A stretch of DNA of 64,000 bases from a phage: the NCBI GenBank assembly GCA_012813795.1, contig GCA_012813795.1_4087.1; one strand, given 5' to 3'. This document shows positions 2,305-27,030 of the stretch, one piece after another. A program made the position numbers and the translations under genes. The stretch's first letter is position 1. Each line of letters starts with the position of its first letter. The notes under the pieces were generated by a model. It had not been told where the DNA came from. It saw nothing but the letters and a program-made list of their open reading frames with translations, and did not search any database.

Positions 2305-2306
2305 TT

Positions 2307-7372: not shown

Positions 7373-7607
7373 TGGTTTCTCCTTATGTTATTTGTTATGA
7401 TTATAGCATACGAAACATTTTTGTCCCACCCATGAACCCCTTCACACGAGCTAAGCAATTACCCGCCCCTAGTTGCCCTAAGTTATAATAACAGGTCGTT
7501 ATTATCACTGGGGTTATAAGGTATTGGTTCATTTTTTAATTGAGTCAATTATTTTTTGACTCAATTATTTTCTGACTAATAGTTTTAGTACTGAATCATT
7601 TAATTCA

Positions 7608-7817
7608 TTAATCATTACTTACTGCAATGATAATCTGCGTATCCGCGTAGTCCTGCCAGACTTCACCGCCAGCCTTTGCCCTGGTTAGTCGTGCTGTCAT
7701 CTGCTTAATAGTCTTAGGCTTTAGTGGAACCTGTTGCAGTACTGTACGCATAGCATCATCGACGTTATAGTGTACGCCTGCAATAGTACCTAGAACGCTG
7801 TATACTGTATAGTTCAT
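7608..7817 (-). CDS. hypothetical small protein
   Basis: 69-aa ORF. Confidence 0.5.
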   Translation of the reverse strand: MNYTVYSVLGTIAGVHYNVDDAMRTVLQQVPLKPKTIKQMTARLTRAKAGGEVWQDYADTQIIIAVSND

Positions 7818-7885
7818 GTGTATGTACTCCTGATATAGTTAAGGCCGCTAGAGAGCGGCCTATGATGTTTGGTGATGTGTAACGC

Positions 7886-8287
7886 TTACAACCCTAAGAT
7901 AGTACGGGCTTCGTTACGCTCCTTAGTCTGCTGCATGATGTAAGCGAGCAAGTCCTTACTAATGTATCCCGTGCCCATAGCTTCACGGATGGATACATCA
8001 TAAGCACCGAACCCCGTGCGAACGATACGCACATCATTCAGGTTAGTGTTATAGATACCGCCGAGGTCAACGGCTTCAAATACTGCATCAACAGTATATT
8101 CATTGTTACCATCATTGAAGTTTTCCAGTTCAATAGTATTGTTAGTTGCCCAACGTTTACAGCTTCCAATGATGCGGCAATATTCAGGGTGCATGTGACC
8201 ATTGTTTACAGCATACTCCATGCCAGCTTTACCAAAAGTCCGAGCCAGTACTAAAACGTCAGCGTAGGAAGTGATTGAGAAAGTCAT
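7886..8287 (-). CDS. hypothetical protein
   Basis: Track ORF trimmed to Met MTFSITSY at 8287, preceded by an RBS and a promoter/stem-loop cassette; the track N-terminus is read-through of the promoter. Confidence 0.6.
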   Translation of the reverse strand: MTFSITSYADVLVLARTFGKAGMEYAVNNGHMHPEYCRIIGSCKRWATNNTIELENFNDGNNEYTVDAVFEAVDLGGIYNTNLNDVRIVRTGFGAYDVSIREAMGTGYISKDLLAYIMQQTKERNEARTILGL

Positions 8288-8306
8288 GGTAGTACTCCTT
8301 AAGTTA

Positions 8307-8369
8307 GGAGGGAGAACCATTTCCCCCTCTCTATGTAAAACATTATACACTTTACTAAGTACTATGCAA
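8307..8369 (-). promoter_or_regulatory. early-type promoter plus 5' stem-loop cassette (minus strand: TTGCAT-N-TATAAT then GGGAGAA..TTCCCCC hairpin)
   Basis: Plus strand shows atgcaa (8364-8369) and attata (8342-8347) with a GGGAG-containing inverted repeat between the -10 box and the ATG at 8287; same architecture recurs >30 times. Confidence 0.6.
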
Positions 8370-8376
8370 GTACTTT

Positions 8377-8709
8377 TTACATTTTAATACCTGGATTCAG
8401 GTAGCGGTGAGATCCATATTCTGGATCGGTTTCGGTCCAGTACTGTAAATCGATAGTACCTTTAGCGTTAATCTTGTCTACCAGCTTATTCATCTTAGCG
8501 TATACTACGTCCGCATCGATGCGTTTAAAGCCAGTAGCTTTAGTGTAGTAGTAGTGATTTGCTTCGCTATCATTGAGGATATACCGAGCACCGTTTGCAG
8601 TTTGTGCGATAATGATTGAGTATTCTACTTCCCGATCCAGCCCGTCAATGAATACAGATGAAACATTGGTACGGATGAAAGCGTTTACGATAGCGATTGA
8701 AGTACTCAT
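8377..8709 (-). CDS. hypothetical protein
   Basis: Trimmed to Met MSTSIAIVNAF at 8709 with RBS GGAG. Confidence 0.55.
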   Translation of the reverse strand: MSTSIAIVNAFIRTNVSSVFIDGLDREVEYSIIIAQTANGARYILNDSEANHYYYTKATGFKRIDADVVYAKMNKLVDKINAKGTIDLQYWTETDPEYGSHRYLNPGIKM

Positions 8710-8860
8710 TTGTGAATCTCCTAACTTTGTGGGCCGTCGCACCATTGCCGCCCTACGAGATACATTATTGCAGTACTGCTATACTTTGTCAATAGTTTTT
8801 TATTAATAGTTTTCCACTCCACCAGCAGATAGTTACTCACCGTTATTAACTATATATTTT

Positions 8861-8950
8861 AGATACACCTATGCACCCTGTGGGCTAGTTTTTGTCTATG
8901 CGTATATAATAGCAAAGGGACTGACCGGAGTCAATCCCTTTTTTTATTCT
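8861..8950 (-). terminator. repeated intergenic module: conserved motif, hairpin GGGATTGAC-UCCG-GUCAGUCCC (minus RNA), -10-like TATTAT
   Basis: Hairpin at 8917-8938; its 5' arm carries TTGACT; near-identical copies at 11932-12025, 15245-15335 and 17701-17800. Confidence 0.5.
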
Positions 8951-8956
8951 TTTTTG

Positions 8957-9157
8957 TTAGATGATCTTCCAATCTTCCACGATCATTGTAAGATACCGAA
9001 CCATCGATTCGAGTGATTCGAATTCACGATAATCTGTCGCCCCACCAGCGGTACAAGTACAACCGATTAAGCCATTTTGCAATTCCTTAATCTGTACATC
9101 GATAAGGTTAGCTTTAGCTTCTTTCAGTACTTCAACCAGTGCGATAGCGATAGACAT
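8957..9157 (-). CDS. hypothetical small protein
   Basis: 66-aa ORF with promoter/stem-loop cassette upstream. Confidence 0.55.
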   Translation of the reverse strand: MSIAIALVEVLKEAKANLIDVQIKELQNGLIGCTCTAGGATDYREFESLESMVRYLTMIVEDWKII

Positions 9158-9180
9158 AATGTTTTACTCCAAACTATTGG

Positions 9181-9240
9181 CGGGAGAACTATTCCCCCGC
9201 TCTATGTAAAACATTATACACTATAGGATAGTACTGTCAA
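9181..9240 (-). promoter_or_regulatory. promoter plus 5' stem-loop cassette (TTGACA-N16-TATAAT; GGGGGAATAGTTCTCCC hairpin)
   Basis: Plus strand shows tgtcaa (9235-9240) and attata upstream of ATG 9157. Confidence 0.55.
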
Positions 9241-9246
9241 ATAGTT

Positions 9247-9504
9247 TTATGAGATATCCTCGATATAGTCGGCCCATTTCATTTTTTCAGTACTGTCAAT
9301 GGCTACCGGATTATTTGGATCAAACCATTCACCATTACCGCAATACATCCCCACGGCAACGGTTTTATATCCATCCTGGGCCGTATTCCAGGCAAGGCCA
9401 CGATAGATACGGCCTTTAACTGGTTGCAGTACTGGTAACGTTTTATGGTCTTCTACGTAGGCCATAGCTTGAGGATTTACCCGATATTGTGTGAATTGTT
9501 CCAT
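9247..9504 (-). CDS. hypothetical protein; paralogue of 9585..9851
   Basis: 85-aa ORF; shared pattern LP...P..G..Y....W....Q..Y.......Y.G.G.W.DP with its neighbour. Confidence 0.6.
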   Translation of the reverse strand: MEQFTQYRVNPQAMAYVEDHKTLPVLQPVKGRIYRGLAWNTAQDGYKTVAVGMYCGNGEWFDPNNPVAIDSTEKMKWADYIEDIS

Positions 9505-9584
9505 GATGTTTCCCCTTTTAATATTGGGGGAGTATTCCCCCTATGCAAAACATTATACACTATCAGTTAGTACTGTCAATACTA

Positions 9585-9851
9585 TCAATTAAATTTAGGA
9601 TGTATTTCAATGTAGTCACAATAAGGAAAATATTCAATATAACGCGTAGTGATTGGATGTAACGGATCGGACCATACACCGCTACCCTCATAGCGTGCTA
9701 GTGGGCCTTTTAAGTACTTTTGTTGTTTCCTTGACCAGTATATGGATTGATAGACTACACCAACGGCAGGGACAACGAGCGGGAGCATAGAGTGATCTAA
9801 TACAACGGATTGATAATTTTTATTATAGCGATATGTTGTTTTCTTTTTCAT
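9585..9851 (-). CDS. hypothetical protein; paralogue of 9247..9504
   Basis: 88-aa ORF. Confidence 0.6.
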   Translation of the reverse strand: MKKKTTYRYNKNYQSVVLDHSMLPLVVPAVGVVYQSIYWSRKQQKYLKGPLARYEGSGVWSDPLHPITTRYIEYFPYCDYIEIHPKFN

Positions 9852-9903
9852 TGTTAACCTATTATAGAAATTATTAAGGGGATATTATCATCCCCTTTTA
9901 TTG

Positions 9904-10128
9904 TTATACTAGATTATTTAATCCTCTTATGGTTGATGCTTTTTCTTCTTTCTCCCATTGACGGTAATACTTCCATGCTTCGTGATAGGTGGCGATCAGT
10001 TCATCTTTTTGATCCTGATTACATGCCAGTACTGAATCACGGAAAGCGGTGTTATAGATAGAATCGAATGATTTCTTTTCTGCCGCCAGGTTAGATACTT
10101 CCCGAATCAGTTCATCATGATTAGCCAT
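9904..10128 (-). CDS. hypothetical small protein
   Basis: Trimmed to Met MANHDELIRE at 10128. Confidence 0.55.
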   Translation of the reverse strand: MANHDELIREVSNLAAEKKSFDSIYNTAFRDSVLACNQDQKDELIATYHEAWKYYRQWEKEEKASTIRGLNNLV

Positions 10129-10196
10129 CGTAGTACTCCTTATTAGTGGGGGAGGATATCTCCCCCTATGCAAAACATTATACTTTGTTTTACTTA

Positions 10197-10460
10197 CTAT
10201 GCAAGTACTTTTTTCATATAAACATTAAATTCTACACCGCCGTAACCTTCTACGATGATATGTTTTGCGTTATCACGCTTGCACATAGTGAAACCGTTGT
10301 TGATATGTTCTGCATTTTCCAGGGATACATCACCGATAGCGGCACATACGGCACTTATAACAGTATTCCGCAAAGTACTGGTATCGTTAGCGGTCATAGT
10401 AGTTTGCAGTACTACGTTGTCGTATACGTGTGCATTGATAGTGATTTCAATAGCGTTCAT
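10197..10460 (-). CDS. hypothetical small protein
   Basis: Trimmed to Met MNAIEITI at 10460; track N-terminus MFYIERGKWFPL is translated promoter hairpin. Confidence 0.55.
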   Translation of the reverse strand: MNAIEITINAHVYDNVVLQTTMTANDTSTLRNTVISAVCAAIGDVSLENAEHINNGFTMCKRDNAKHIIVEGYGGVEFNVYMKKVLA

Positions 10461-10547
10461 GGTGTATCTCCTGGACTTGAGGGGAAACCATTTCCCCCTC
10501 TCGATATAAAACATTATACGTTGATCTAACTACAATGCAAGTACTTT

Positions 10548-10739
10548 TTAAATTTTATTTCCGATATAGTCCGGCCTATTCTTTTCGGTCATACGCTTTG
10601 CTAATGTTTGCATATGGCTTATCGCGTTTAAGGTGTCTTCCTCCAGGGATGAATCAACATAATCAGGATCATTCTTCACCTTACAATGATTATGATAGCG
10701 TAGTACTGCCAGTACTTTTTTAACTTCTTCAACTGTCAT
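10548..10739 (-). CDS. hypothetical small protein
   Basis: 63-aa ORF; stop/start overlap with 10736..11008. Confidence 0.5.
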   Translation of the reverse strand: MTVEEVKKVLAVLRYHNHCKVKNDPDYVDSSLEEDTLNAISHMQTLAKRMTEKNRPDYIGNKI

Positions 10740-11008
10740 AATAAGTATTCCACTTCGTTAGCTTTCAGGTTAGTATCAATCATCAGTGGATTTTTGTAGT
10801 TCACAAAACGATTAGTTTTCTCGATAGCGAATCCCATATAATCCAGCTTACTAACAGTACATTCATTCTTAAAAACTTCTTTCGCTGCATCGATGGCTGA
10901 TTGCATGGATAACCGACCATCTAAATTAATGTTTCCAAATGATCCACCAGCAGAAGTAGGATTACCGTTCATATCTTTAATGATCATAGTAGCGGAGTAG
11001 CTAGACAT
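10736..11008 (-). CDS. hypothetical small protein
   Basis: 90-aa ORF. Confidence 0.55.
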   Translation of the reverse strand: MSSYSATMIIKDMNGNPTSAGGSFGNINLDGRLSMQSAIDAAKEVFKNECTVSKLDYMGFAIEKTNRFVNYKNPLMIDTNLKANEVEYLL

Positions 11009-11095
11009 AATTTTGTTTCCTTTTAGTATCGGGGAGAACTATTCTCCCCTTGATGTAAACTATTATACAGTACTGATATACTTTGTCAAATACTT

Positions 11096-11503
11096 TTATT
11101 CGCCCATATAGATTAGATTATCATCGCCTACATAGGGATCGCAAACGTTGATTTCTTCGCAGTACTTAGTGAATACATCGTCATAGTGACCGATATCACG
11201 ATCCCAAAAGCCAGTGCCGTGACCTTCGCGAGTAAGAAAGAGATCATGACCTGCATGATTATAAGTATAATCAGGATTATGGTGTTTTTGTACTGTTTCC
11301 ATATCTTCACCATGTACAGCAAGGAAACGTGAACATGCAATCACTGCCGCTTGATGGGCTTGCTCTGATAATTCATAATCTTCCAGGTAATCGCCGTTCT
11401 CATTGTATACAGTACTGAATTGCATAGCTTCAATGTAACCAGCGACCATTGCAGCATGATTTTTATCGTTGGTGATGTTCCGAGCTTGATTAGTAGTAGT
11501 CAT
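11096..11503 (-). CDS. hypothetical protein (His/Asp/Tyr-rich)
   Basis: 135-aa ORF; the 85-bp cassette upstream is an exact duplicate of the one upstream of the previous gene (11010-11095 vs 11504-11586). Confidence 0.55.
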   Translation of the reverse strand: MTTTNQARNITNDKNHAAMVAGYIEAMQFSTVYNENGDYLEDYELSEQAHQAAVIACSRFLAVHGEDMETVQKHHNPDYTYNHAGHDLFLTREGHGTGFWDRDIGHYDDVFTKYCEEINVCDPYVGDDNLIYMGE

Positions 11504-11586
11504 GTTTTTATTCCTTTTAGTATCGGGGAGAACTATTCTCCCCTTGATGTAAACTATTATACAGTACTGATATACTTTGTCAATAC

Positions 11587-11808
11587 TTAATTACGTTTAA
11601 AATGATATGTGCCTTTATCATCCTGAACGCCCCATACTGATTTACCATCAACACCAGTGAAGCCGGATTGTAATTCAATATGGAAACCATTATTATCAAC
11701 TACAAAAACTTTTTTATTTTCATCCCGATAACATTGATATTCTGAATCAACATTAAAGGCCGCATCATTCAGAAGATTGGAAGCGTAAATGCAAGTCATT
11801 GTAGTCAT
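11587..11808 (-). CDS. hypothetical small protein
   Basis: Trimmed to Met MTTMTC at 11808 with RBS AAGGAA. Confidence 0.55.
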   Translation of the reverse strand: MTTMTCIYASNLLNDAAFNVDSEYQCYRDENKKVFVVDNNGFHIELQSGFTGVDGKSVWGVQDDKGTYHFKRN

Positions 11809-12028
11809 GATTTTATTCCTTATTGCCAGGGAGAACCGTTTCCCCCTCTCGATATAAAACATTATACTTGATTCTAAGTACAATGCAAGTACTTTTTAAA
11901 AATAGTTTTCAGTACTCAATCATTATACAATAGATACACTCCCGCACCCTATGGGTCAGTGAGCTATCTCTCAATGAATATATAATAGCAAAGGGACTGA
12001 CCGGAGTCAATCCCTTTTTTAATCTTTT

Positions 12029-12613
12029 TTATCGTGTTATAGTTACGGCTTTTACGTCGCGTTGTTTATAGTACTGATTCCAAATATTGCGGGTTAAACC
12101 GTAATCAAGTACTTTAATCAGGCCATTGCGATCCTCGCCTATGTTCTGCTTTCTGATATCTCTTATCGTTAGTGTTGATAAGGTATCATCAACGTGTTGT
12201 AGTGCATCAGCGAAATGGTGTTGGCGTTCAATAGTGTTACGTTTAACATTGTACTTTAATTCATTGCAAGCGTTAACGTGCTTTACACTGCCTTTGCTTG
12301 CAGTACTCAAACGATCCATAACAATAAACATATTATCAGGATCGCTTAAATGCATATGCACTTTCGCAAAGAACTGTTTCAACCGAGGACGGTCATAATC
12401 TAAAAAATTCCATACCTTACATTCTGTTTCATTTTGTTCTACGCCAGCATCACAATTCGCGACCTTAATCACTAACCGATCATTTAAAGCGAATACGATA
12501 CGGGATGATCCGGCCCCGATGATTTCAAGTCCAGCCAACCGACAAACTGTAAGGATCTCTTTGTTAGTTTCCATTTCTGCCAGTGCCCGGATGAATTTAG
12601 TATAGTTACGCAT
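12029..12613 (-). CDS. putative small protein-kinase-like protein
   Basis: 194 aa; ordered motifs IGAGSSRIVF (Gly-rich loop), VIKV (Lys), IRDIRKQN (catalytic-loop-like), VLDYG (DFG-like). Fold assignment is by eye only. Confidence 0.4.
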   Translation of the reverse strand: MRNYTKFIRALAEMETNKEILTVCRLAGLEIIGAGSSRIVFALNDRLVIKVANCDAGVEQNETECKVWNFLDYDRPRLKQFFAKVHMHLSDPDNMFIVMDRLSTASKGSVKHVNACNELKYNVKRNTIERQHHFADALQHVDDTLSTLTIRDIRKQNIGEDRNGLIKVLDYGLTRNIWNQYYKQRDVKAVTITR

Positions 12614-12682
12614 TGCATTTACTCCTTAAGATAGCAGGGAGGTATTCCCTGCCTTGATGTGACTATTATATGTTAGTACTAA

Positions 12683-12910
12683 TTAGATTGCAACAGTTTT
12701 ATTTGCAATTACTGAATGAATTGCGGTTTTACCTGATTTAGTACTGAATACATTAGCACGACCATTTTCAATAGTGATGCGGTATTCACCTTTACTATCA
12801 ATGAGGTTGATAAATTCAGGAGTACTAAACCGAGTTACTTTAAAAGTCAGTACATTGAGCAGGTCCACCAGCGTAGTAGTTTCTTTGATGCGTTCTAAGA
12901 TATTAATCAT
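12683..12910 (-). CDS. hypothetical small protein
   Basis: 75-aa ORF. Confidence 0.5.
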   Translation of the reverse strand: MINILERIKETTTLVDLLNVLTFKVTRFSTPEFINLIDSKGEYRITIENGRANVFSTKSGKTAIHSVIANKTVAI

Positions 12911-12975
12911 TTTGTTTCTCCAGTTATTCCGTGTTGGTATAGATACATAGTACTAAAACATTTGAGTACTGTCAA

Positions 12976-13194
12976 TTAGATAATTGCATATTTCTTTAAA
13001 GATAATGCGTCTTGTGTTGGCTGATACTCCACGCCGTTACCGTTATCTACTTTAACTAATAAACCTTTGTCAATTAGTTTTTTAATAGTCCGTTGGCCTT
13101 GTTGAAAATTGGTAAAGTGTGAATCATTACGAAAGGTGTAACCATGTTGGATAGCTACATCAATAGTTTTCTTTTCGACTTTAGATAAATTCAT
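12976..13194 (-). CDS. hypothetical small protein, possibly winged-helix DNA-binding
   Basis: 72-aa ORF; QRTIKKLIDKGLLVKV resembles a recognition helix plus wing. Confidence 0.4.
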   Translation of the reverse strand: MNLSKVEKKTIDVAIQHGYTFRNDSHFTNFQQGQRTIKKLIDKGLLVKVDNGNGVEYQPTQDALSLKKYAII

Positions 13195-18999: not shown

Positions 19000-19004
19000 A
19001 TTAA

Positions 19005-20828: not shown

Positions 20829-21270
20829 TGTTTTGATTCCTATTCAGTAGTTGATGTATGTATTATGTCAGTACTTAAAACTATTGTCAAACTATTTTTT
20901 AAAGTTTATCAATGATTGATGCCGTTTCATTGATAGTCTTGCCGTGTTTTGCACACGCGATAACTGCTTTAAATTCCTTTGATGACCAATCTTTTTTCCT
21001 GCATACTGACATTACTTGTAAAGTGAAACAATCCAGTTCATAAGTATTCATCTTTATATCCTCAGTTAGTTAAGGTGTCTCGCCTTGATGTAATTAATTA
21101 TACGCTAATCTCTTAATCGTGCAAGTACTTTTTATTAGTTTTTATAAAATACTTTTAACGCTCTCAATCGCATTCTAACGGCCTTAACGCCACCAGCTAG
21201 GGCGATGTATCACATAAACGAAAAAAGCCCGTAGAATTGATTCTACGAGCTTTTAAGCTGGTTGATTGTA

Positions 21271-21678
21271 TTACTTACAGTTATAGACTATGATCCCGAC
21301 CGTCCCGTGTCCAATGACTTCAACGTTATACACTAACTTGCCATTTACACGCTCGCGAGCATAAAAAACGCGTTCATTCTCGGCATCGCGATACGCTGAT
21401 AAAAATTTACGGTTTGGATACGCTTTCAGTACTGGCGACTCAGTGAAAAAGTCACCGATAACTACACTAAAATGATCCCCGTGTTCTGTTAATGGTATAC
21501 TACGCGGATCAGTAAATTGCGGACGGTTATCAATAACAAAATATGGATTCACTGTACAAATCTTATCGCCCATCTCTGAATAAGTTGGCTTAGGATCATT
21601 AGCCTGGATGGATGATTTAGGGGCCGTACATCCCACCGCCAACAGTACACAACTAATAACCGCAATTTTTTTAAACAT
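21271..21678 (-). CDS. putative lipoprotein
   Basis: 135 aa; N-terminus MFKKIAVISCVLLAVGC is a signal peptide with lipobox. Confidence 0.6.
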   Translation of the reverse strand: MFKKIAVISCVLLAVGCTAPKSSIQANDPKPTYSEMGDKICTVNPYFVIDNRPQFTDPRSIPLTEHGDHFSVVIGDFFTESPVLKAYPNRKFLSAYRDAENERVFYARERVNGKLVYNVEVIGHGTVGIIVYNCK

Positions 21679-21711
21679 AATGTTTACTCCTATAAAATTG
21701 TATTTAAAAGA

Positions 21712-21734
21712 AAATCCCCTAGCAATCAGGGGAT
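21712..21734 (-). terminator. intrinsic terminator (AATCCCCT...AGGGGATT hairpin, U-run on minus RNA)
   Basis: Perfect 8-bp inverted repeat just 3' of gene 21743..22225. Confidence 0.55.
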
Positions 21735-21742
21735 TCGTTTGA

Positions 21743-22225
21743 TTATGCTACATCTTTACGGTGAGCTTCGATCCATTCCTCGCGAGTCATACCGCTGGCG
21801 TTAATCGCGTCCAGTACTACGGCAATGCAGTTACCGCGTACTGGTACAGTGTATTCCTCGCCATTATCCAGTACTACCGTGACACGTTCTTGAATCCATT
21901 TTTTAGCTTTTACTTCTGGCTTGTCTTCCCCGTATTTCGCTGCCAGGGCTTTACGGGCCATTTCGGTAACTACTTCCAGATCAAGCCCAGCGACGGCGGC
22001 GTTAATATCTTCAATCGTTTTCTGCAATTCTGCTTCGCGTGCTGCCTTCTCTGCTTCAATTGCCGCCGCTTTATTAGCTTGCAGTTCTTTCGCTTCGCTG
22101 TACGCAATGTTAAAATTGTTGCGTACTGCTTTCATGGTATCGCTATCCAGTTCAGCCAGGATCTCTGCCGCTACATTAGTTTCATTTGCTACCAGTGCTT
22201 TGATGAATGATTTTACGTTAGCCAT
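21743..22225 (-). CDS. hypothetical Ala/Glu/Lys-rich helical protein
   Basis: Trimmed to Met MANVKSFIKAL at 22225 with RBS GAGGA. Confidence 0.6.
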   Translation of the reverse strand: MANVKSFIKALVANETNVAAEILAELDSDTMKAVRNNFNIAYSEAKELQANKAAAIEAEKAAREAELQKTIEDINAAVAGLDLEVVTEMARKALAAKYGEDKPEVKAKKWIQERVTVVLDNGEEYTVPVRGNCIAVVLDAINASGMTREEWIEAHRKDVA

Positions 22226-22426
22226 TATGTAATTCCTCAATTAAAGTTTAGTTTACGTTAGATAGTGTATCAAAGTTTTCTCGACGTGTCCAGTTTTTCG
22301 TTCGACTTACTGGCGGTCTACTTAGTGCTCCCCGTCTTGATGTAATACATTCTACGCCTTTTTGTGGTAATGTCAACTACTTTTTTAAAACTATTTTCAA
22401 AGTATTCCAGTACTACGATACTACAA

Positions 22427-22452
22427 AAACAAAAAAGCCCACCAGGTGGGCT
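22427..22452 (-). terminator. intrinsic terminator (AGCCCACC-UGGU-GGGCU hairpin plus U-run on minus RNA)
   Basis: Inverted repeat with A-run on plus strand immediately 3' of gene 22459..22689. Confidence 0.6.
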
Positions 22453-22458
22453 ATGTAC

Positions 22459-22689
22459 TTAATCAGTAAGTAAAATATTAAACACTTTGCCATTTAACGT
22501 TATTGGTGTACTGCTACCAGGCTTGAGATCAGTTAGTACACCTGCAATAGCTTTTTCATTGGCGACCTTTCCAGTGTCCAATAGTACTACAGTACTGATA
22601 AGATTAACGCTCGTTTCAATATCATAATGCACGGCGTTAAGGAGTTGTGTAGTACTTCCAGCGTTAAGTAAAACTATTCGCTTAGTCAT
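22459..22689 (-). CDS. hypothetical small protein
   Basis: 76-aa ORF. Confidence 0.5.
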   Translation of the reverse strand: MTKRIVLLNAGSTTQLLNAVHYDIETSVNLISTVVLLDTGKVANEKAIAGVLTDLKPGSSTPITLNGKVFNILLTD

Positions 22690-22767
22690 GGTATTACCCC
22701 TTATACCAGGGGAACCGTTCCCCCTATGTAAAACATTATACGCGTTTAAAAACTATTGTATAGTACT

Positions 22768-23004
22768 TTATGATTTTTTATAAAACATTTCAGCAGTGAT
22801 ATTTTTACCCGTTGGTTGTACTTTATCCAGAATTTTTTGATGTCCAGGGCGACCAAATGAATAAGATCCGTAAACCGTAAACCAGTAGTTACCCTCAGTG
22901 TTTACATGTACAGCACAATAGGGAACGCCCCGCGATTCATCACTAGTAAAGTGTGCTACCGTTCCCGTTACATTCGAAGACGTTGATTTGATTTGTTCGA
23001 CCAT
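22768..23004 (-). CDS. hypothetical small protein; paralogue of 24154..24387
   Basis: Shared GVPYCAVHVNT.G.YW.TVYG.YSF.RP.H.KIL..V.PTGK.ITAE. Confidence 0.6.
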   Translation of the reverse strand: MVEQIKSTSSNVTGTVAHFTSDESRGVPYCAVHVNTEGNYWFTVYGSYSFGRPGHQKILDKVQPTGKNITAEMFYKKS

Positions 23005-23247
23005 TTTCTTATTCCTTAGTTACCAGGGGAACCGCTCCCCCTATGCAAAACATTATACGCGTTTAAAAACTAATAGCAAGTATTTTAATAAAAAGTATTT
23101 GGAAAATAATTGTTGACAAGTGCATCCAGTACTGGCATAATTACTACATCAAGACGAAACAGTCACTAACCCACCGGGTGCCGAGATCCGTCTATTAAAT
23201 GATTCAGTACTGAAAAAGTAACGGGGAGTTATTATCTCCCCGCGTTG

Positions 23248-23469
23248 TTATTTTGTAAGGTATAAACAGAAGTCACCTTTATTTGCTACGCCGCCAGTGT
23301 AACGCGATGAATAGTTAGTAACGTCCTGGACTTCTGCTATTACCAGTGTATCATCATTCAATTCGTCGCAGAAGCAAACGGCTGGATCTTTTACGCCGAT
23401 ATTGTCGGCATGTTCCCGCATAGATTTAACCAGTGCTTCAAGTTGGGAAAGGGTAGTAATGTTAGCCAT
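23248..23469 (-). CDS. hypothetical small protein
   Basis: Trimmed to Met MANITTLSQ at 23469. Confidence 0.5.
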   Translation of the reverse strand: MANITTLSQLEALVKSMREHADNIGVKDPAVCFCDELNDDTLVIAEVQDVTNYSSRYTGGVANKGDFCLYLTK

Positions 23470-23555
23470 TGTATTTTCCTCATTACCAGGGAGAACCATT
23501 TCTCCCCTTGATGTAAACTATTATACAGTACTAAAAACTAATTGCAAGTACTTTT

Positions 23556-23759
23556 TTAATTTAATTGCTTTAACACATAATCATAAACACCACGCACATC
23601 ATTGATCATCGCCTCACGGTTAGCAGGTAACGCAGAAGGATCGCCACTATCCCAGGCATTGATAAAACTCCCCAAATCATGATAGATTTTATTTTGTAAG
23701 CCGATCAACTGTAATTCTTTTTCTTCAAGCTCTTTGATACGGTCGATTAAATCACTCAT
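23556..23759 (-). CDS. hypothetical small protein
   Basis: 67-aa ORF. Confidence 0.5.
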   Translation of the reverse strand: MSDLIDRIKELEEKELQLIGLQNKIYHDLGSFINAWDSGDPSALPANREAMINDVRGVYDYVLKQLN

Positions 23760-23776
23760 TAGATAATCCTCAGTAC

Positions 23777-24064
23777 TTAATTGTAAGATCCGCAGCGGTT
23801 GCAGTAGTTCCCGTCTTCCTCGTCATCGTCAACGAATTGACCGACGAAATGATCTACTTTCTCTTTGAGGCTTTTATAATCCTCTTCTACTTCCTTTAAA
23901 CGTTTCTGGTAGTATTCCAGGGCTTGCACATACGCCGCCTCAGCAGTTTTCTCCCGCATAGCTAAATTCATGCCGCGTGTTTCATCATAAAGCCAATAAC
24001 CATCGGTGCACTGGCTGATAGAAAATGATTTGGTTAACACTTTATAGTCAATTACTTTGCTCAT
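23777..24064 (-). CDS. hypothetical small protein with C-terminal Cys cluster
   Basis: 95-aa ORF; C-terminal YCNRCGSYN. Confidence 0.5.
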   Translation of the reverse strand: MSKVIDYKVLTKSFSISQCTDGYWLYDETRGMNLAMREKTAEAAYVQALEYYQKRLKEVEEDYKSLKEKVDHFVGQFVDDDEEDGNYCNRCGSYN

Positions 24065-24153
24065 TAGATAATCCTCTGTAAATGCAGGGGAACCATTTCC
24101 CCCGCCTCGATATAAAGTATTATACTCGTTTAAACTTAGTATGCAAGTACTTT

Positions 24154-24387
24154 TTAGTGCTTAGTAAAATATTTTTCTGCGGTGATATCCTTTCCGGTAG
24201 GCTTCACTACTTCCAGGATCTTACTATGTGCCGGACGAGCAAACGAATACCCCCCGTATACAGTTAACCAATAGTCACCGTCAGTGTTTACGTGTACAGC
24301 ACAATAGGGTACACCTTTATCAGTATCAGCGATGGAATGTACTTTCGTTCCGGTCCGGCTTGTAGTCGTTTGAATTTGTTCGATCAT
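24154..24387 (-). CDS. hypothetical small protein; paralogue of 22768..23004
   Basis: 77-aa ORF. Confidence 0.6.
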   Translation of the reverse strand: MIEQIQTTTSRTGTKVHSIADTDKGVPYCAVHVNTDGDYWLTVYGGYSFARPAHSKILEVVKPTGKDITAEKYFTKH

Positions 24388-24444
24388 GATGCTTACTCCT
24401 GGTTATAGGCGGGAACCACTCCCGCCATTGATTCAGTACTGAAA

Positions 24445-24675
24445 TTACATTCCAACCATTGCCGCACGAATTGCAGTAGTGCTATACTTAAAGCCGTCCG
24501 GCGTTGACTGACCGCGTAAAGTATCCATCATTAGCCGGGCGGCGGCATCGCGGTTATTTGTCTCATTGATGCAATCCAGGGCGTGACGATACAACCAGCT
24601 ATCATTGTTAATCCAAAGGCTTACATTCCAATGAGTTTTGTTTTTGTGACCTAAGAACATTTTTGATTTAGCCAT
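24445..24675 (-). CDS. hypothetical small protein; paralogue of 25230..25469
   Basis: Shared GHKNKT.WNVSLWINND and C-terminal PDGFKYSTTAIRAAMVGM. Confidence 0.6.
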   Translation of the reverse strand: MAKSKMFLGHKNKTHWNVSLWINNDSWLYRHALDCINETNNRDAAARLMMDTLRGQSTPDGFKYSTTAIRAAMVGM

Positions 24676-24880
24676 TTTGAAAATCCTCGTTTGATTTGAG
24701 CGGGGAACTATTCCCCGTCCTGATGTAAAACATTATACGCCTTTAAACATAGTTTGCAAGTACTTTTTAAAAATAGTTTTAATCACTTTCCTATAGATAC
24801 ACTCCCGCACCCTATGGGCTATCGCCTTGTATCCGGCTTGTAAGTATTATCTCACTAAGCCGGATAATGGTCAAGTACTT

Positions 24881-25147
24881 TTATTCAAGTACTGCAATCT
24901 TTTTAGTACGGTACACAGTAACACGGTTGCCCTTGCGGTCGTGCTTTATTTCTACCACTCGACGCGATACACTATCAGGACTTTTTAACGCCGATAACCA
25001 GTACTGTAACGATCTGGCGGTGCTACGCTTTACAATGACCCAACGTTCACCCCTGGCTGATTGTACGCCCATATCTTTAAACGTTGCACCGTCAACCTTT
25101 GCCGCTTGCCGAGCTTGTTCACGCGTTTCAAAGTATATAATATTCAT
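24881..25147 (-). CDS. hypothetical protein; paralogue of 13566..13961
   Basis: Trimmed to Met MNIIYFETREQAR at 25147. Confidence 0.55.
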   Translation of the reverse strand: MNIIYFETREQARQAAKVDGATFKDMGVQSARGERWVIVKRSTARSLQYWLSALKSPDSVSRRVVEIKHDRKGNRVTVYRTKKIAVLE

Positions 25148-25229
25148 GCTGATACCCCATCGTTGATGTATGAATAAAATCCTATTATAAAGTACTATCA
25201 CCGTGCAATAGTACTTTAAATCTATTCTC

Positions 25230-25469
25230 TTACATTCCAACCATCGCGGCACGGATCGCCGTAGTGCTATACTTGAATCCGTCTGGAGTTTTATCTTGTC
25301 CAGTTTGCTCTAAAAATAGCATCATATGACGGGCCGCATCATTACGATTAGTATTAGCGTCGATAAATTCTTTCGCCAGACGATACAATGACTCATCGTT
25401 ATTAATCCAAAGGCTTACATTCCACTGAGTTTTGTTTTTGTGACCGTTGAAAGTTTTAGTAGTAGCCAT
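25230..25469 (-). CDS. hypothetical small protein; paralogue of 24445..24675
   Basis: 79-aa ORF. Confidence 0.6.
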   Translation of the reverse strand: MATTKTFNGHKNKTQWNVSLWINNDESLYRLAKEFIDANTNRNDAARHMMLFLEQTGQDKTPDGFKYSTTAIRAAMVGM

Positions 25470-25554
25470 AATTAAAAATCCTCTTAATTATAGTGGGGAA
25501 CTATTCCCCACCTGATAGAAAGTATTATACGCCTTTAAACTTAGTTTGCAAGTA

Positions 25555-25788
25555 CTATTTTTTCAGTACTGGTAAACCTTTGATCTCACCTGGCTGTACT
25601 TCCTCAAAGGTCGCCGCCATCATACGGCTATCATCTTCCTTGCACTCTTCCATTGCATCACAAAAATGATTAATAACGTCCGGTGCAACGTCAACCACAT
25701 CAAACAAGCCAACCTCAGTGCAACGGCTTAAAGCGTTTAACAGGTCAGTCAGTGCAACGGATTGAGAAACAGTTAAGATAGTACTCAT
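25555..25788 (-). CDS. hypothetical small acidic protein
   Basis: 77-aa ORF. Confidence 0.5.
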   Translation of the reverse strand: MSTILTVSQSVALTDLLNALSRCTEVGLFDVVDVAPDVINHFCDAMEECKEDDSRMMAATFEEVQPGEIKGLPVLKK

Positions 25789-25882
25789 AAAATTAATCTC
25801 TTAATTATAGTGGGGAACTATTCCCCACCTGATAGAAAGTATTATACGCCTTTAAACTTAGTATGCAAGTACTTTTTAAAAC

Positions 25883-26245
25883 TTATTCGTAAATCTTGCC
25901 ACTGTCAGCCCATACCAGGAAACGCGGCATATTATCCCATGCATCTTGTTTCAAGTTTAAGCCGTGCAATACTTCTGTACTTTCCATCCCTGGTACTGGT
26001 TTACTATACACCGCAAACATTTCGCCCATGTACTGATACGCCATCGTTAAATCACTGGCGATCATCTTATGGATCATCGCATCAAGCATCACAGTAGCGG
26101 CGTATTGTTCACGCTTAAGCGGCAACATTGCAATCAATTCCCGATAAGCTGAAATATGAATCTTTACAGTCTCAGCCGGAAGATCTTTCATCTCTTCGCG
26201 AAAGTTAACCAGGTTAGCAATGATTTTAGTGATTTGAGTCGCCAT
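25883..26245 (-). CDS. hypothetical protein
   Basis: 120-aa ORF behind a promoter/stem-loop cassette at 26250-26340. Confidence 0.55.
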   Translation of the reverse strand: MATQITKIIANLVNFREEMKDLPAETVKIHISAYRELIAMLPLKREQYAATVMLDAMIHKMIASDLTMAYQYMGEMFAVYSKPVPGMESTEVLHGLNLKQDAWDNMPRFLVWADSGKIYE

Positions 26246-27030
26246 CGTTTTAATTCCTATTAAAGTGAGTTAGGAGCGTTTCCCCCGTCTCGATGTAAAA
26301 CATTATACGCCGTTAAACATAGTATGCAAATACTTTCTGCAAATACTTTTAAAATAGTTTTCTTTCTATATAGGAGTACTATCATTCAGTACTGAATCAA
26401 TCCAGGGAGTACAATTATTCAGTACTATACCCTCAAAACGTCCTCAGTCGCTTTCTAACGCATTAATACACCTAAGCTATACATTTGCACCACTCCCAAC
26501 AATCCAGGGCTTTACGGGCCGTTTAAACGCGTTAAATTATTTTCAATTATTTTGTTTTTAGCTATTGACTCAGTACAGAAAAAGCGTATAATTACTACAT
26601 AGACGCGAGAAAGCGGATACCCCAGGGGGTGCGGAACTACGCCCAAAATTCAGTAAATTTAAAAAGGATACACTCCCGCACCCTAGCAGGTCAAAGCACT
26701 TTCTCAGTACTGAATCATAGTACCATAGTACGCCCCATGATAGCAAGCAAATTAATTAAAACTTTTTGCATCCAGGGTATTGCTTTATTTTTCCAGTACT
26801 GTATAATAGTTCCATCAAGTCGAGAAAGACTCAAGCCCAACGGGTGCATAGTTACGCCCAAAATTCAGTACTAGATTATTTTTTAAAAATATTCATCCAG
26901 GCGGTTGACATTGCCCCCAGTTTATTAGATAATGATTCCAGATTCAGAAAAATCTAACTCCAGATACTGCGGGGAAACCATCCCCACGCGGTAGGGGAAC
27001 TAATGGAAAAAACAGTATAAAATTTTGATT

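What the first reader, a model, noticed from the sequence alone, without database searches (positions are those of the whole stretch)
7600..26340. More than 30 copies of a promoter plus 5' stem-loop cassette
Nearly every small gene in this stretch is preceded by TTGACA/TTGCAA-N16-17-TATAAT, then GTTTTACATAG, then a GGGGAGA(A)..TTCTCCCC inverted repeat, then an RBS. Several 75-90-bp copies are identical, for example 11010-11095 and 11504-11586, 14381-14468 and 14652-14739, and four copies around 16844-20380. This matches the promoter-early stem-loop cassettes reported in hyperplastic regions of RB49-like T4-type phages. The conserved GGAG inside the stem could also be a target for a RegB-like endoribonuclease.
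Basis: partly seen in the sequence, partly recalled or inferred. Interest (0 to 1): 0.6.

Follow-up and report, generated by a model that had tools for sequence, protein, structure and literature searches.

The report
Early-gene promoter-hairpin cassettes, jumbo phage
The terminal repeat of a giant E. coli phage carries about 50 tiny genes, most with a near-identical promoter cassette and half with an added leader hairpin; these cassettes drive early expression and mark where genes are gained, lost and swapped, a new variant of a system known from T4-like phages.

Summary
All elements lie on the minus strand. Of 52 small genes between 7.6 and 26.3 kb, 39 have their own sigma-70-type promoter. 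Twenty-six (27 with a degenerate copy) have the full cassette: A-tract/GTAC, TTGACA/TTGCAA/TTGCAT, 16-nt spacer, perfect TATAAT, 10-14 nt, a G-rich/C-rich hairpin, SD, ATG. A strict scan found 19 in this stretch, one elsewhere in the window, and none in 30 shuffles.

The window is not from an RB49-like T4-type phage. It is an Asteriusvirus-like jumbo coliphage, and by homology the stretch matches its ~20.5-kb direct terminal repeat.

The cassettes work like PeSLs. Ends of homology blocks with eight relatives cluster in them, two genes flanked by identical cassettes are missing from some relatives, and cassette-plus-gene modules are shared with a 145-kb Vequintavirinae phage.

They also differ from RB49 PeSLs. 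The hairpin lies downstream of the -10, inside the predicted transcript, has no U-tract, and folds better on the sense strand. I infer an RNA-level stability or insulation role rather than termination.

The RegB idea is unsupported. In passing, AGTACT is 12-fold over-represented across the window.

The parts
7456..27945 (-). Inferred direct terminal repeat (DTR) of an Asteriusvirus-like jumbo phage. About 52 small co-oriented genes sit between 7.6 and 26.3 kb, and the last ~1.7 kb (26.3-27.9 kb) is non-coding.
   Evidence: Window 7584..27893 aligns to fEgEco12 positions 20865..53. The fEgEco12 DTR is 1-20,993 by PhageTerm and restriction digests (PMC13070987). vB_Ec-M-J annotates a DTR at 1-21525. 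The boundaries in this window are inferred by homology only.
8285..8378 (-). Promoter + leader-hairpin cassette (hairpin 8329-8308), upstream of the gene starting at 8287
9155..9250 (-). Promoter + leader-hairpin cassette (hairpin 9200-9180)
   Evidence: z = -4.5
9502..9589 (-). Promoter + leader-hairpin cassette (hairpin 9541-9526). The homology-block end at 9520 abuts it.
10126..10213 (-). Promoter + leader-hairpin cassette (hairpin 10166-10148)
10458..10550 (-). Promoter + leader-hairpin cassette (hairpin 10500-10479)
11006..11099 (-). Promoter + leader-hairpin cassette (hairpin 11049-11031). It shares a 73-nt exact repeat with the next cassette.
11501..11593 (-). Promoter + leader-hairpin cassette (hairpin 11543-11525). 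Together with the previous cassette it flanks gene 11096-11503, which is absent from JP4, CRJP21 and PBECO4.
11806..11898 (-). Promoter + leader-hairpin cassette (hairpin 11847-11828)
12616..12703 (-). Promoter + leader-hairpin cassette (hairpin 12653-12633; variant stem GGCAGGGA/TCCCTGCT)
14378..14475 (-). Promoter + leader-hairpin cassette (hairpin 14423-14404). It shares a 98-nt exact repeat with the next cassette.
14649..14746 (-). Promoter + leader-hairpin cassette (hairpin 14694-14675). Together with the previous cassette it flanks gene 14469-14651, which is absent from JP4.
15655..15746 (-). Promoter + leader-hairpin cassette (hairpin 15696-15678)
15955..16045 (-). Promoter + leader-hairpin cassette (hairpin 15995-15976)
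16230..16319 (-). Promoter + leader-hairpin cassette (hairpin 16269-16251)
17575..17666 (-). Promoter + leader-hairpin cassette (hairpin 17615-17597)
18163..18254 (-). Promoter + leader-hairpin cassette (hairpin 18205-18184). First of three adjacent cassettes whose 52-nt promoter segments are 94% and 96% identical between neighbours.
18397..18483 (-). Promoter + leader-hairpin cassette (hairpin 18433-18414). The two genes between these three cassettes are in swapped order in phage A4.
18717..18809 (-). Promoter + leader-hairpin cassette (hairpin 18761-18741)
20512..20602 (-). Promoter + leader-hairpin cassette (hairpin 20552-20533). The cassette and its gene are also present in Vequintavirinae phage A7_1.
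22687..22772 (-). Promoter + leader-hairpin cassette (hairpin 22724-22708)
23002..23089 (-). Promoter + leader-hairpin cassette (hairpin 23041-23025)
23467..23557 (-). Promoter + leader-hairpin cassette (hairpin 23507-23488)
24062..24155 (-). Promoter + leader-hairpin cassette (hairpin 24105-24084). The block 24093-23772 is 90% identical to phage A7_1.
24673..24769 (-). Promoter + leader-hairpin cassette (hairpin 24717-24701)
25467..25561 (-). Promoter + leader-hairpin cassette (hairpin 25512-25492)
   Evidence: z = -3.8
25786..25877 (-). Promoter + leader-hairpin cassette (hairpin 25829-25809)
26243..26340 (-). Degenerate cassette: TTTGCA-17-TATAAT-GTTTTACATCGAG followed by an imperfect hairpin (-8.5 kcal/mol)
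55251..55333 (-). The only full promoter + leader-hairpin cassette in the window outside the inferred DTR
16841..16911 (-).
17136..17203 (-). Hairpin-less promoter cassette of the same subfamily
19982..20061 (-). Hairpin-less promoter cassette of the same subfamily
20286..20356 (-). Hairpin-less promoter cassette of the same subfamily. The cassette and its gene are also present in phage A7_1.
8906..8945 (-). Terminator/promoter composite: AAAGGGATTGACtccgGTCAGTCCCTTT, with the -35 inside the stem and the T-run forming the spacer, then TATTAT. Further copies at 11982-12021, 15291-15330 and 17750-17789.
50197..60921 (-). Seven further terminator/promoter composites outside the DTR (GGTTGACttcgGTCAGCC-TTTTTTG-yTATAAT), with -35 starting at 50226, 52440, 53169, 56277, 59192, 60560 and 60917
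13525..13543 (-). Canonical intrinsic terminator with a U-tract. Others on the minus strand are at 22452-22436, 21736-21712, 21254-21223, 16423-16398 and 9897-9876. Together they split the DTR into multi-promoter units.

Best explanation
The stretch is the early, host-takeover gene array in the roughly 20.5-kb direct terminal repeat of an Asteriusvirus-like jumbo coliphage. Most of its ~52 tiny genes of mostly unknown function come as self-contained expression modules. Each module has an A-tract/GTAC upstream element, a near-consensus sigma-70 promoter read by host RNA polymerase, a conserved initial transcribed sequence (probable start at the invariant A 8 nt after TATAAT), a Shine-Dalgarno site and an ATG, often followed by GCT. 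In half of the modules a G-rich/C-rich hairpin begins about 3-7 nt from the predicted 5' end of the transcript.

The hairpin most likely acts on RNA as a stability and insulation element. It would protect the 5' end of its own mRNA. In read-through transcripts it would form the 3' end of the upstream cistron and the 5' end of the downstream one after processing. It is probably not a terminator, because true U-tract terminators occur separately every few kb.

The ~90-bp cassettes are repeated 26-39 times in direct orientation and share exact stretches of 31-98 nt. They are therefore substrates for homologous recombination that inserts, deletes, duplicates and reorders single genes, as proposed for PeSLs. 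Whole cassette-plus-gene modules are also exchanged with unrelated coliphages.

Shown: the anatomy, the copy number, excess over chance, location, co-orientation, clustering of block ends in the cassettes, indels flanked by identical cassettes, and cross-family sharing.
Inferred: the transcription start sites, early timing, the RNA-level role of the hairpin, and the recombination mechanism.
For: - Anatomy and excess over chance: 26 cassettes with perfect TATAAT and fixed geometry. The strict scan gives 19 in the DTR and 0 in 30 shuffles. The tool scan finds 44 strong promoter matches (at least 10 of 12), 38 of them on the minus strand.
- Identity and location: Asteriusvirus matches. The stretch is collinear with the fEgEco12 and vB_Ec-M-J DTRs (PMC13070987). 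In those two records, genes immediately past the DTR end overlap without intergenic cassettes.
- Early expression by host polymerase (by analogy): the related jumbo phage PA5oct needs host RNAP, and its DTR genes are highly transcribed early (PMC7318152).
- Hairpin at RNA level: no U-tract, at most 3 T in the 8 nt after the stem. None of the 26 passes the terminator scan, whereas separate sites on the minus strand do. In fixed 40-nt windows the sense strand folds better than the antisense in 18 of 24 (p = 0.004) and in 77 of 116 with relatives (p = 1.5e-5). There are 22 distinct stem sequences that keep pairing. In orthologue comparisons there are 10 pairing-preserving changes, including 4 compensatory, against 6 breaking changes, all 6 within three pairs of a helix end.
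- 5' stem-loops with at most 2-4 unpaired nt stabilise E. coli RNAs, and 3' stem-loops block exonucleases (PMC2948425).
- Recombination: 45 of 51 homology-block ends fall outside coding interiors (p = 6e-15), and 22 of 51 fall inside hairpin cassettes that cover 14% of the sequence (p = 6e-7). Genes 11096-11503 and 14469-14651 are flanked by 73-nt and 98-nt exact repeats and are missing in relatives whose single cassette aligns to both copies. Gene order is swapped in A4 between three cassettes whose promoter segments are 94-96% identical. Adjacent promoters are more alike than distant ones (p < 1e-4).
- Cross-family sharing: at least 16 of the 52 gene families, with homologous cassettes, occur in a different order in the 145-kb Vequintavirinae phage A7_1, at up to 90% nucleotide identity over 322 nt.
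Against: - No transcript data exist for this phage, so start sites and timing are inferred.
- The predicted unpaired 5' segment is 3-7 nt. That is at or beyond the 2-4-nt limit reported for 5'-end protection.
- Thirteen promoter-bearing genes manage without the hairpin, so it is not essential for expression.
- Single-sequence folding z-scores are modest, from -0.8 to -4.5. RNAalifold on a sequence-only alignment recovers only a 5-pair core.
- A first sense/antisense comparison was biased by how I defined the stems. A test that required 4 Watson-Crick closing pairs gave 18 G-U against 9 A-C, which is not significant.
- The invariant orientation (G-rich arm first) in all 22 distinct hairpins suggests sequence-specific recognition that a pure stability model does not explain.
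- Clustering of block ends in intergenic cassettes could partly reflect selection against gene-disrupting events and BLAST extension into shared cassette sequence.
- The neighbouring 39-64 kb is also poorly conserved. The DTR therefore cannot be called uniquely plastic.
Confidence: 0.6

Rival explanations
1. Classical PeSL reading: the stem-loop is a transcription terminator or attenuator. It insulates each gene from upstream transcription, so that each cassette is a terminator-promoter composite.
For: PeSL stem-loops of the same GGGG...CCCC type reduced read-through in a lacZ reporter as strongly as rrnB T1 (PMC2839356). There is no other structured element between most genes here. True terminator/-35 composites do exist in the same window: 4 in the DTR and 7 at 50-61 kb.
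Against: The hairpin lies downstream of its own promoter, so it would also stop its own transcript at about +30. No U-tract follows any of the 26, and none passes the terminator scan. The phage uses canonical U-tract terminators elsewhere in the DTR. In RB49 the hairpin lies within or upstream of the promoter core, not in the transcript.
Confidence: 0.15
2. The inverted repeat GGGGAA-N3-5-TTCCCC is a DNA operator at about +5 to +25. A dimeric phage or host regulator binds it to shut off, or activate, the whole set of early promoters together.
For: The repeat is palindromic and sits in a fixed position just downstream of the start site in 26 promoters. The core GGGGA/TCCCC and its orientation are conserved in all 22 distinct versions. 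A second palindrome, AGTACT, also sits at fixed promoter positions, so DNA-level regulation of these promoters is plausible.
Against: Half-site spacing varies (loops of 3, 4 and 5 nt) and the outer stem pairs vary while staying complementary. Departures from perfect symmetry favour G-U pairs on the sense strand. Compensatory changes are seen between orthologues. No regulator has been identified.
Confidence: 0.1
3. The leader hairpin is the recognition element for a phage-encoded RNA-binding factor, such as a translational repressor, an antiterminator loader or a processing enzyme. This factor would control the early regulon after transcription.
For: The orientation and the GGGGA/UCCCC core are invariant despite 22 sequence variants. 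The hairpin sits at a fixed distance from the 5' end and from the SD. It is absent from a distinct promoter subfamily, which would define two regulatory classes.
Against: No candidate protein was identified. Pfam matches only 4 families among the 52 DTR proteins, none of them an RNA-binding family. Loop sequences are not conserved (10 loop variants). Shared ancestry and gene conversion could explain the conserved core.
Confidence: 0.1
4. One reading: the GGAG inside the stem is a cleavage target for a RegB-like endoribonuclease.
For: GGAG occurs in 9 of 26 hairpins and in 6 of the SD spacers. T4 RegB cuts GGAG in early mRNAs (PMC1702504 abstract).
Against: Seventeen of 26 hairpins lack GGAG, and where present it is base-paired. 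A tblastn with validated T4 RegB found 1138 records. The 40 rows sampled across the ranking are T4-type genomes of about 160-175 kb plus three shorter records, with no jumbo phage among them. Pfam found no RegB family among the DTR proteins.
Confidence: 0.03

Closest known systems
PeSLs (promoter-early stem-loops) of T4-like phages RB49/phi1, PST/T4 and nt-1/KVP40 (Arbiol et al. 2010, PMC2839356; Comeau et al. 2014, PMC4122927)
   Same: [quoted passage not shown] Both have an A-rich tract, a near-consensus sigma-70 promoter, a G-run/C-run stem-loop and an SD. Both are attached mainly to small ORFans, occur in many copies in a variable region, and coincide with insertions, deletions and replacements between close relatives. 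Short leader strings are even shared, for example ATCAAGACAAC in RB49 and in the hairpin-less cassettes here.
   Different: The host phage is a Rak2-like jumbo phage (Asteriusvirus), not a T4-like one. The array fills the direct terminal repeat, whereas T4-type genomes are circularly permuted. The hairpin lies 10-14 nt downstream of the -10, inside the predicted transcript; in RB49 it lies between -35 and -10 or across the -10. It has no U-tract. There is no blastn-level similarity to T4-like phages. Terminator activity and mini-circles are untested here.
Host-takeover module in the terminal redundancy of Bacillus phage SPO1, and the early-transcribed DTR of jumbo phage PA5oct
   Same: Both are clusters of many small genes of unknown function that occupy most of a long terminal repeat. 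SPO1 has 24 genes in 13.2 kb (PMC10531801). PA5oct has 105 genes in a 39-kb DTR that are highly transcribed early and depend on host RNAP (PMC7318152).
   Different: The accounts read here do not mention repeated promoter-hairpin cassettes or cassette-bounded gene shuffling. SPO1 has a different host and sigma factor.
5'-terminal and intercistronic stabiliser stem-loops of E. coli RNAs (ompA leader, RNAI and rpsT constructs; 3' stem-loops that block exonucleases)
   Same: A stable hairpin close to the 5' end of the transcript, upstream of a free SD, with no terminator tail.
   Different: The predicted unpaired 5' tail of 3-7 nt is at or beyond the 2-4-nt limit reported for protection. The role here is inferred, not measured. 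The hairpin sequence is far more uniform than function alone would require.
Integron gene cassettes and lambdoid 'morons' (analogies drawn by the PeSL authors, PMC2839356)
   Same: Single-gene modules are inserted or lost at conserved flanking repeats. As with morons, each module brings its own promoter.
   Different: No integrase or attC-type site is evident. Exchange is presumed to use general homologous recombination on 31-98-nt repeats. All modules are co-oriented with the surrounding transcription.

Membership tests
PeSL (promoter-early stem-loop cassettes) | Sigma-70-like early promoter (-35, about 17-nt spacer, -10) with an AT-rich tract upstream | tested here: met
   All 26 have a perfect TATAAT and a -35 of TTGACA/TTGCAA/TTGCAT at a 15-17-nt spacer, with AAAAAGTAC upstream.
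PeSL (promoter-early stem-loop cassettes) | Stable stem-loop, typically poly-G then poly-C, as part of the same intergenic motif | tested here: met
   Stems of 6-9 bp, always with the G/A-rich arm first, folding at -9 to -15 kcal/mol for the hairpin alone.
PeSL (promoter-early stem-loop cassettes) | Stem-loop placed upstream of -35, over -35, between the boxes, over -10, or between -10 and the transcription start, so that its own promoter does not transcribe it | tested here: not met
   The hairpin starts 10-14 nt after TATAAT and ends 26-35 nt after it, beyond any plausible start site. RB49 PeSLs examined directly have it between -35 and -10 or across -10. Only the separate terminator/-35 composites (8941, 12017, 15326, 17785, and seven at 50-61 kb) fit this feature.
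PeSL (promoter-early stem-loop cassettes) | [quoted passage not shown] | tested here: met
   Cassettes fill the 85-98-nt gaps between genes. Pfam matches only 4 families among the 52 proteins. Twenty-three of 52 genes vary among 8 relatives.
PeSL (promoter-early stem-loop cassettes) | Indels and replacements between close relatives have their junctions in the cassettes | tested here: met
   22 of 51 block ends lie in cassettes that cover 14% of the sequence (p = 6e-7). Two genes flanked by 73-nt and 98-nt exact repeats are missing in relatives. Gene order is swapped in A4.
PeSL (promoter-early stem-loop cassettes) | The stem-loop is an effective transcription terminator or attenuator | not testable with these tools
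   This needs a reporter assay or Term-seq. The sequence argues against it: no U-tract, and none of the 26 appears in the terminator scan.
PeSL (promoter-early stem-loop cassettes) | Recombination between neighbouring cassettes yields mini-circles during infection | not testable with these tools
   This requires inverse PCR or long reads from infected cells.
PeSL (promoter-early stem-loop cassettes) | Found in T4-like myoviruses (the only hosts described) | tested here: not met
   The best matches are Asteriusvirus jumbo phages. Cassette homologues occur only in Rak2-like jumbo phages and a few Vequintavirinae, with no T4-like hit.
RegB endoribonuclease target sites | An accessible GGAG in early mRNA, plus a RegB homologue in the phage | tested here: not met
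   GGAG occurs in 9 of 26 hairpins and is base-paired there. No jumbo phage appears among the sampled RegB tblastn hits. No RegB Pfam family occurs among the DTR proteins. The rest of this phage's genome was not available.
Intrinsic (Rho-independent) terminators | GC-rich hairpin followed directly by a U-tract | tested here: not met
   At most 3 T in the 8 nt after each leader hairpin. The criterion is met by separate elements such as 13543, 22452, 21254, 21736, 16423 and the -35-containing hairpins.

The most novel reading that the evidence does not exclude
The cassette may be more than a strong promoter with a stabiliser. The invariant G-first GGGGA/UCCCC leader hairpin, together with the AGTACT palindromes fixed at the -35 and -10 edges, could form a phage-specific regulatory code. 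One or more unknown phage factors would read it to switch about 40 early promoters or mRNAs of the terminal repeat on and off together. The same ~90-bp unit could also act as an integron-like exchange site without an integrase, moving host-takeover or anti-defence ORFans between unrelated coliphage families (Rak2-like jumbo phages and Vequintavirinae).
Probability: 0.2. Interest if true: 0.7.

Novelty: new variant of a known kind. Interest (0 to 1): 0.45.

Why it matters
PeSL-type 'mobile regulatory cassettes' have been described only in T4-like phages. If this reading holds, it has four consequences.

- The same design principle (one strong host-type promoter cassette per ORFan, doubling as a recombination site) organises the whole terminal repeat of a different lineage of giant phages. 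That repeat is probably the earliest-expressed DNA.
- The principle works with a different architecture, with the hairpin in the transcript rather than in the promoter.
- Complete promoter-hairpin-gene modules move between phage families.
- It gives a concrete, testable map of about 40 candidate early promoters and 52 candidate host-takeover genes for Asteriusvirus phages, which are being developed for therapy and whose genomes are mostly annotated as 'hypothetical protein'.

The cassettes are also compact, strong E. coli expression parts.

Tried and rejected
- Rfam, whole window at gathering thresholds: no family. In E-value mode on the DTR: only a sub-threshold CyaR-like hit and a chance miRNA hit. 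No tRNA or tmRNA.
- The exact pattern GGGGAGA-N2-8-TCTCCCC finds only 5 copies. The stems are too variable for a fixed pattern, so I used a structure-aware scan instead.
- RNAalifold on a MAFFT alignment recovers only a 5-pair core, because the alignment is not in structural register. I therefore counted pairs from the loop outward in Python.
- My first sense-versus-antisense energy comparison was biased, because the stems had been defined on the sense strand. A stricter test was not significant. I replaced both with fixed 40-nt windows.
- RegB: the query sequence was validated against PDB 2HX6. No jumbo phage appeared among the sampled hits.
- I tried to show that the DTR is more plastic than its surroundings. 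The adjoining 39-64 kb is covered even less by known phages (at most 45%), so I dropped that claim.
- I tested whether the conserved GGGTGC-N5-TGTATC elements downstream of the terminator/promoter composites are structured small RNAs. Folding z-scores were near zero for most copies, and the alignment of 15 copies showed no covariation. They remain unexplained.
- Literature: no paper in the searchable library describes promoter cassettes, PeSLs or AGTACT enrichment in Asteriusvirus or other Rak2-like phages. The CBB paper reports only 18 RpoD-like promoters with UP-like elements.
- The automatic gene caller chose starts inside hairpins, because the G-runs scored as SD sites. I curated gene starts by hand.

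Full report
**1. What is in the sequence**

Read on the minus strand, a typical unit is AAAAAGTAC-TTGCAA-N16-TATAAT-GTTTTACATAGA-GGGGAGAA-atgg-TTCTCCCC-N14-25 (with an SD)-ATG.

A hairpin-first scan followed by a promoter search found 26 such units between 8285 and 25877, plus one degenerate unit at about 26307.
- All 26 have a perfect TATAAT.
- The -35 is TTGACA, TTGCAA or TTGCAT, at a spacer of 15-17 nt and usually 16.
- The hairpin begins 10-14 nt after the -10.
- It has a 6-9-bp stem and a 3-5-nt loop.
- Its 3' end lies 14-25 nt before the ATG, and the SD is left free.

With strict criteria there are 19 units in this stretch on the minus strand, one elsewhere in the window (55.3 kb), none on the plus strand and none in 30 shuffles. 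The tool's own promoter scan lists 44 matches of at least 10 of 12 positions in the stretch, 38 of them on the minus strand.

I curated 52 genes by hand.
- 39 have a sigma-70-type promoter within 110 nt upstream.
- 26 of those also have the hairpin.
- 13 have no promoter of their own.

'More than 30 promoter plus stem-loop copies' is therefore an overcount.

The 'four copies around 16844-20380' form a separate promoter subfamily (TTGACA-17-CATAAT-AGATTTTATCAAGACAAC) with no stem-loop.

A third element type is also present. It is an intrinsic terminator whose stem contains the -35 and whose T-run forms the spacer (AAAGGGATTGACtccgGTCAGTCCCTTTGCTATTAT). It occurs four times in the stretch and seven more times at 50-61 kb.

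**2. Where it comes from**

The stretch does not match RB49-like phages. Its best matches are Asteriusvirus jumbo coliphages of 350-385 kb (JP4, CRJP21, BF17, A4, G17, PBECO4, phAPEC6). Identity is about 88-94%, but coverage never exceeds 77% and the matches are always in many pieces.

Window 7584-27893 is collinear with positions 20865-53 of phage fEgEco12. That phage's 20,993-bp direct terminal repeat was defined by PhageTerm and confirmed by restriction digests (PMC13070987). Phage vB_Ec-M-J annotates a 21,525-bp repeat at the same place.

The cassette array is therefore the terminal repeat, inferred here as about 7456-27945. In the fEgEco12 and vB_Ec-M-J records, genes inside the repeat are separated by gaps of 80-100 nt, while the genes that follow it overlap by a few bases.

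The proteins are almost all of unknown function. Pfam matches 4 families among the 52 proteins.

In the related jumbo phage PA5oct, the DTR genes are among the most highly transcribed early genes, and infection depends on host RNA polymerase (PMC7318152). That supports, by analogy only, the reading of this array as early genes transcribed by host sigma-70 holoenzyme.

**3. The hairpin**

There are 22 distinct hairpin sequences among the 26 copies. All have the purine-rich arm first (core GGGGA...TCCCC). Pairing is kept through A-T/G-C/G-T alternatives at several stem positions.

None is followed by a U-tract, with at most 3 T in the next 8 nt. None appears in the terminator scan, which instead picks out separate sites on the minus strand such as 13543, 22452, 21736, 21254 and 16423, plus the -35-containing hairpins. 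These divide the repeat into multi-promoter units.

Individual leaders fold at -12 to -20 kcal/mol, with z-scores from -0.8 to -4.5.

In fixed 40-nt windows placed after the -10, the sense strand folds more stably than the antisense strand in 18 of 24 distinct cassettes (p = 0.004). Including the eight relatives, it does so in 77 of 116 (p = 1.5e-5). These sequences are related, so the p-values are generous. An earlier comparison was biased by my stem definition, and a stricter count was not significant.

Between orthologous cassettes I found 80 identical hairpins. Among the changed ones there were six distinct G-U-type changes and four compensatory double changes, against six pair-breaking changes. 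All six breaking changes lie within three pairs of a helix end.

With the invariant A 8 nt after TATAAT as the likely start site, the hairpin begins 3-7 nt from the 5' end of the RNA. Stem-loops that leave no more than 2-4 unpaired nucleotides at the 5' end stabilise E. coli RNAs, and 3' stem-loops impede exonucleases (PMC2948425).

My preferred reading is an RNA-level stability or insulation element that can serve both flanking cistrons. This step is inferred. The tail length is borderline, 13 promoters do without the hairpin, and the fixed arm orientation hints at sequence-specific recognition.

**4. Recombination**

I aligned the window to eight Asteriusvirus terminal repeats and collapsed the block ends to 51 distinct positions.
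- 45 lie outside coding interiors, where 35% would be expected (p = 6e-15).
- 22 lie within the 26 hairpin cassettes, which occupy 14% of the sequence (p = 6e-7).

Gene 11096-11503 is flanked by the 73-nt exact repeat. It is absent from JP4, CRJP21 and PBECO4, and their single cassette aligns to both window copies. Gene 14469-14651 is flanked by the 98-nt repeat and is absent from JP4 in the same way. This is the signature expected from recombination between direct repeats, or from insertion of a circle carrying one cassette.

Between three adjacent cassettes at 18163-18809, whose 52-nt promoter segments are 94% and 96% identical, the two intervening genes are in swapped order in phage A4.

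Adjacent promoters are more similar than non-adjacent ones (0.64 against 0.55, permutation p < 1e-4). Only five paralogous gene pairs exist among the 52 genes. The cassettes are therefore kept alike while the genes they drive are unrelated.

Of the 52 genes, 29 are present in all eight relatives, 23 are variable and 3 are unique to this phage.

Caveats apply. Selection against gene disruption, and BLAST extension into shared cassette sequence, both push block ends toward intergenic cassettes. The adjoining 39-64 kb is also poorly conserved.

**5. Spread**

A single 87-nt cassette finds 12-30 places per genome in Asteriusvirus. It finds fewer in Salmonella phages Munch and 7t3, in Klebsiella fENko-Kae01 (inside its annotated terminal repeat), in K64-1 and RaK2, and in the Erwinia/Serratia phages pEa_SNUABM_12/44/47/50 and BF. 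It also matches a few coliphages of 137-152 kb. It finds no T4-like phage. An exact core pattern occurs in only five IMG/VR contigs, all jumbo-sized or fragments.

In the Vequintavirinae phage A7_1 (145 kb), a run of small genes carries homologous promoter-hairpin cassettes. At least 16 of the window's 52 gene families are present there at 30-89% amino-acid identity and up to 90% nucleotide identity over 322 nt, in a different order. Whole cassette-plus-gene modules have thus moved between phage families.

**6. Comparison with the known system**

PeSLs are defined as sigma-70-like early promoters with an AT-rich upstream tract plus a stable, usually G-run/C-run stem-loop. They fill intergenic spaces next to ORFans in hyperplastic regions of T4-like phages.

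In PeSLs the stem-loop lies upstream of, within, or just downstream of the promoter core but before the start site. It acts as a terminator, and the elements mediate indels and mini-circle formation (PMC2839356, PMC4122927).

I examined RB49 directly. Its hairpins lie between -35 and -10 (TTGACAGGGGATCnnnGATCCCCTATAAT) or across the -10.

The cassettes here share the promoter type, the stem type, the ORFan association and the junction behaviour. They fail two defining features, namely stem-loop position and host lineage, and two more features cannot be tested here. I therefore file them as a new variant that works like PeSLs, not as members in the strict sense. The terminator/-35 composites in the same window fit the PeSL 'overlapping the -35' subclass better.

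Functionally, the array also resembles the host-takeover module in the terminal redundancy of SPO1.

**7. RegB**

Only 9 of 26 hairpins contain GGAG, and there it is base-paired.

T4 RegB was checked against PDB 2HX6 and then used in a tblastn search, which found 1138 phage records. The 40 rows sampled evenly across the ranking are T4-type genomes of about 160-175 kb plus three shorter records, and none is a jumbo phage. Only those 40 rows were inspected.

The idea is not supported. The rest of this phage's genome was not available to me.

**8. Verdict**

- It is a new variant of a known kind and of moderate interest.

Noticed in passing
whole window; densest at 7460-27945: The palindrome AGTACT occurs 252 times against about 21 expected (no shuffle exceeds 36). 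CAGTACTG occurs 52 times against 0.7 expected. Density is 6.2 per kb in the terminal repeat, mostly non-coding, but also 2.4-3.8 per kb in the coding regions at 28-64 kb, and the motif appears in all three reading frames.

In promoters it sits at two fixed places: ending on the first T of the -35, and directly abutting the -10.

It is enriched in all eight Asteriusvirus terminal repeats (126-177 against 7-10 expected). It is absent from 100 kb of RB49 and not enriched in phage A7_1. Six other palindromic hexamers are completely avoided in the window.

No explanation was found, and no paper in the searchable library mentions it.
   Followed up: partly
minus strand 8862-8878, 11933-11949, 15247-15263, 17701-17717, 24796-24812, 26667-26683; inverted copies near 23141-23200 (+) and 26592-26640 (+): A conserved core of about 29 nt, AGCCCAYNGGGTGC-N5-TGTATCTA, recurs six or more times. 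Four of the six minus-strand copies (8862, 11933, 15247, 17701) lie 25-40 nt downstream of one of the four terminator/-35 composites, which supply their own TTGACT-17-TATTAT promoter, in gaps of 200-430 nt without ORFs. The copy at 24796 follows a different promoter (TTGACC-17-GATAAT) and the copy at 26667 has no such composite.

It could be a short non-coding RNA family or a protein-binding site. Folding z-scores are near zero for most copies, and an alignment of 15 copies shows no covariation.
   Followed up: partly
21221-21303 (-): A full-length but sub-threshold match to the CyaR/RyeE sRNA model (37.7 bits, gathering score 47, E = 8e-4 for the DTR search). It ends in a strong U-tract terminator at 21254-21223. 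The single-stranded AACCA segment is kept, but the first CyaR hairpin is not. It may be a phage-encoded sRNA.
   Followed up: partly
L020 (Escherichia phage A7_1, Vequintavirinae) 10500-22600, against window 7900-25500: At least 16 of the 52 terminal-repeat gene families, several with homologous promoter-hairpin cassettes, are shared with a 145-kb phage of a different subfamily. The gene order differs, and nucleotide identity reaches 90% over 322 nt. This points to recent horizontal exchange of early-gene modules.
   Followed up: partly
26300-27945 and 27945-28500: The last ~1.7 kb of the inferred terminal repeat has no ORF in this window or in relatives. It carries plus-strand consensus promoters (-35 at 26565 and 26905), inverted GGGTGCGG/CCGCACCC repeats and many AGTACT sites. 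GC skew changes sign at about 28 kb. It may be the genome-end, packaging or first-entry region.
   Followed up: no
39000-63900: The part of the window outside the repeat is covered at most 45% by any phage in the collection (97.6% identity to A4 over that part, about 86-91% to others). The source phage is therefore a distinct Asteriusvirus-like lineage with much unshared sequence.
   Followed up: no
50197-60921 (-): Seven compact dual-function elements, each a terminator hairpin with a UUCG-type loop whose 5' arm is the -35 (GGTTGACttcgGTCAGCC). The U-tract forms the spacer, followed by TATAAT. They precede genes outside the terminal repeat.
   Followed up: no
gene starts across 7600-26300 (-): Thirteen of the 52 genes begin with ATG GCT (Met-Ala). 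Cassette identity often runs through the first two or three codons, so the repeated unit includes the start of the coding sequence.
   Followed up: no
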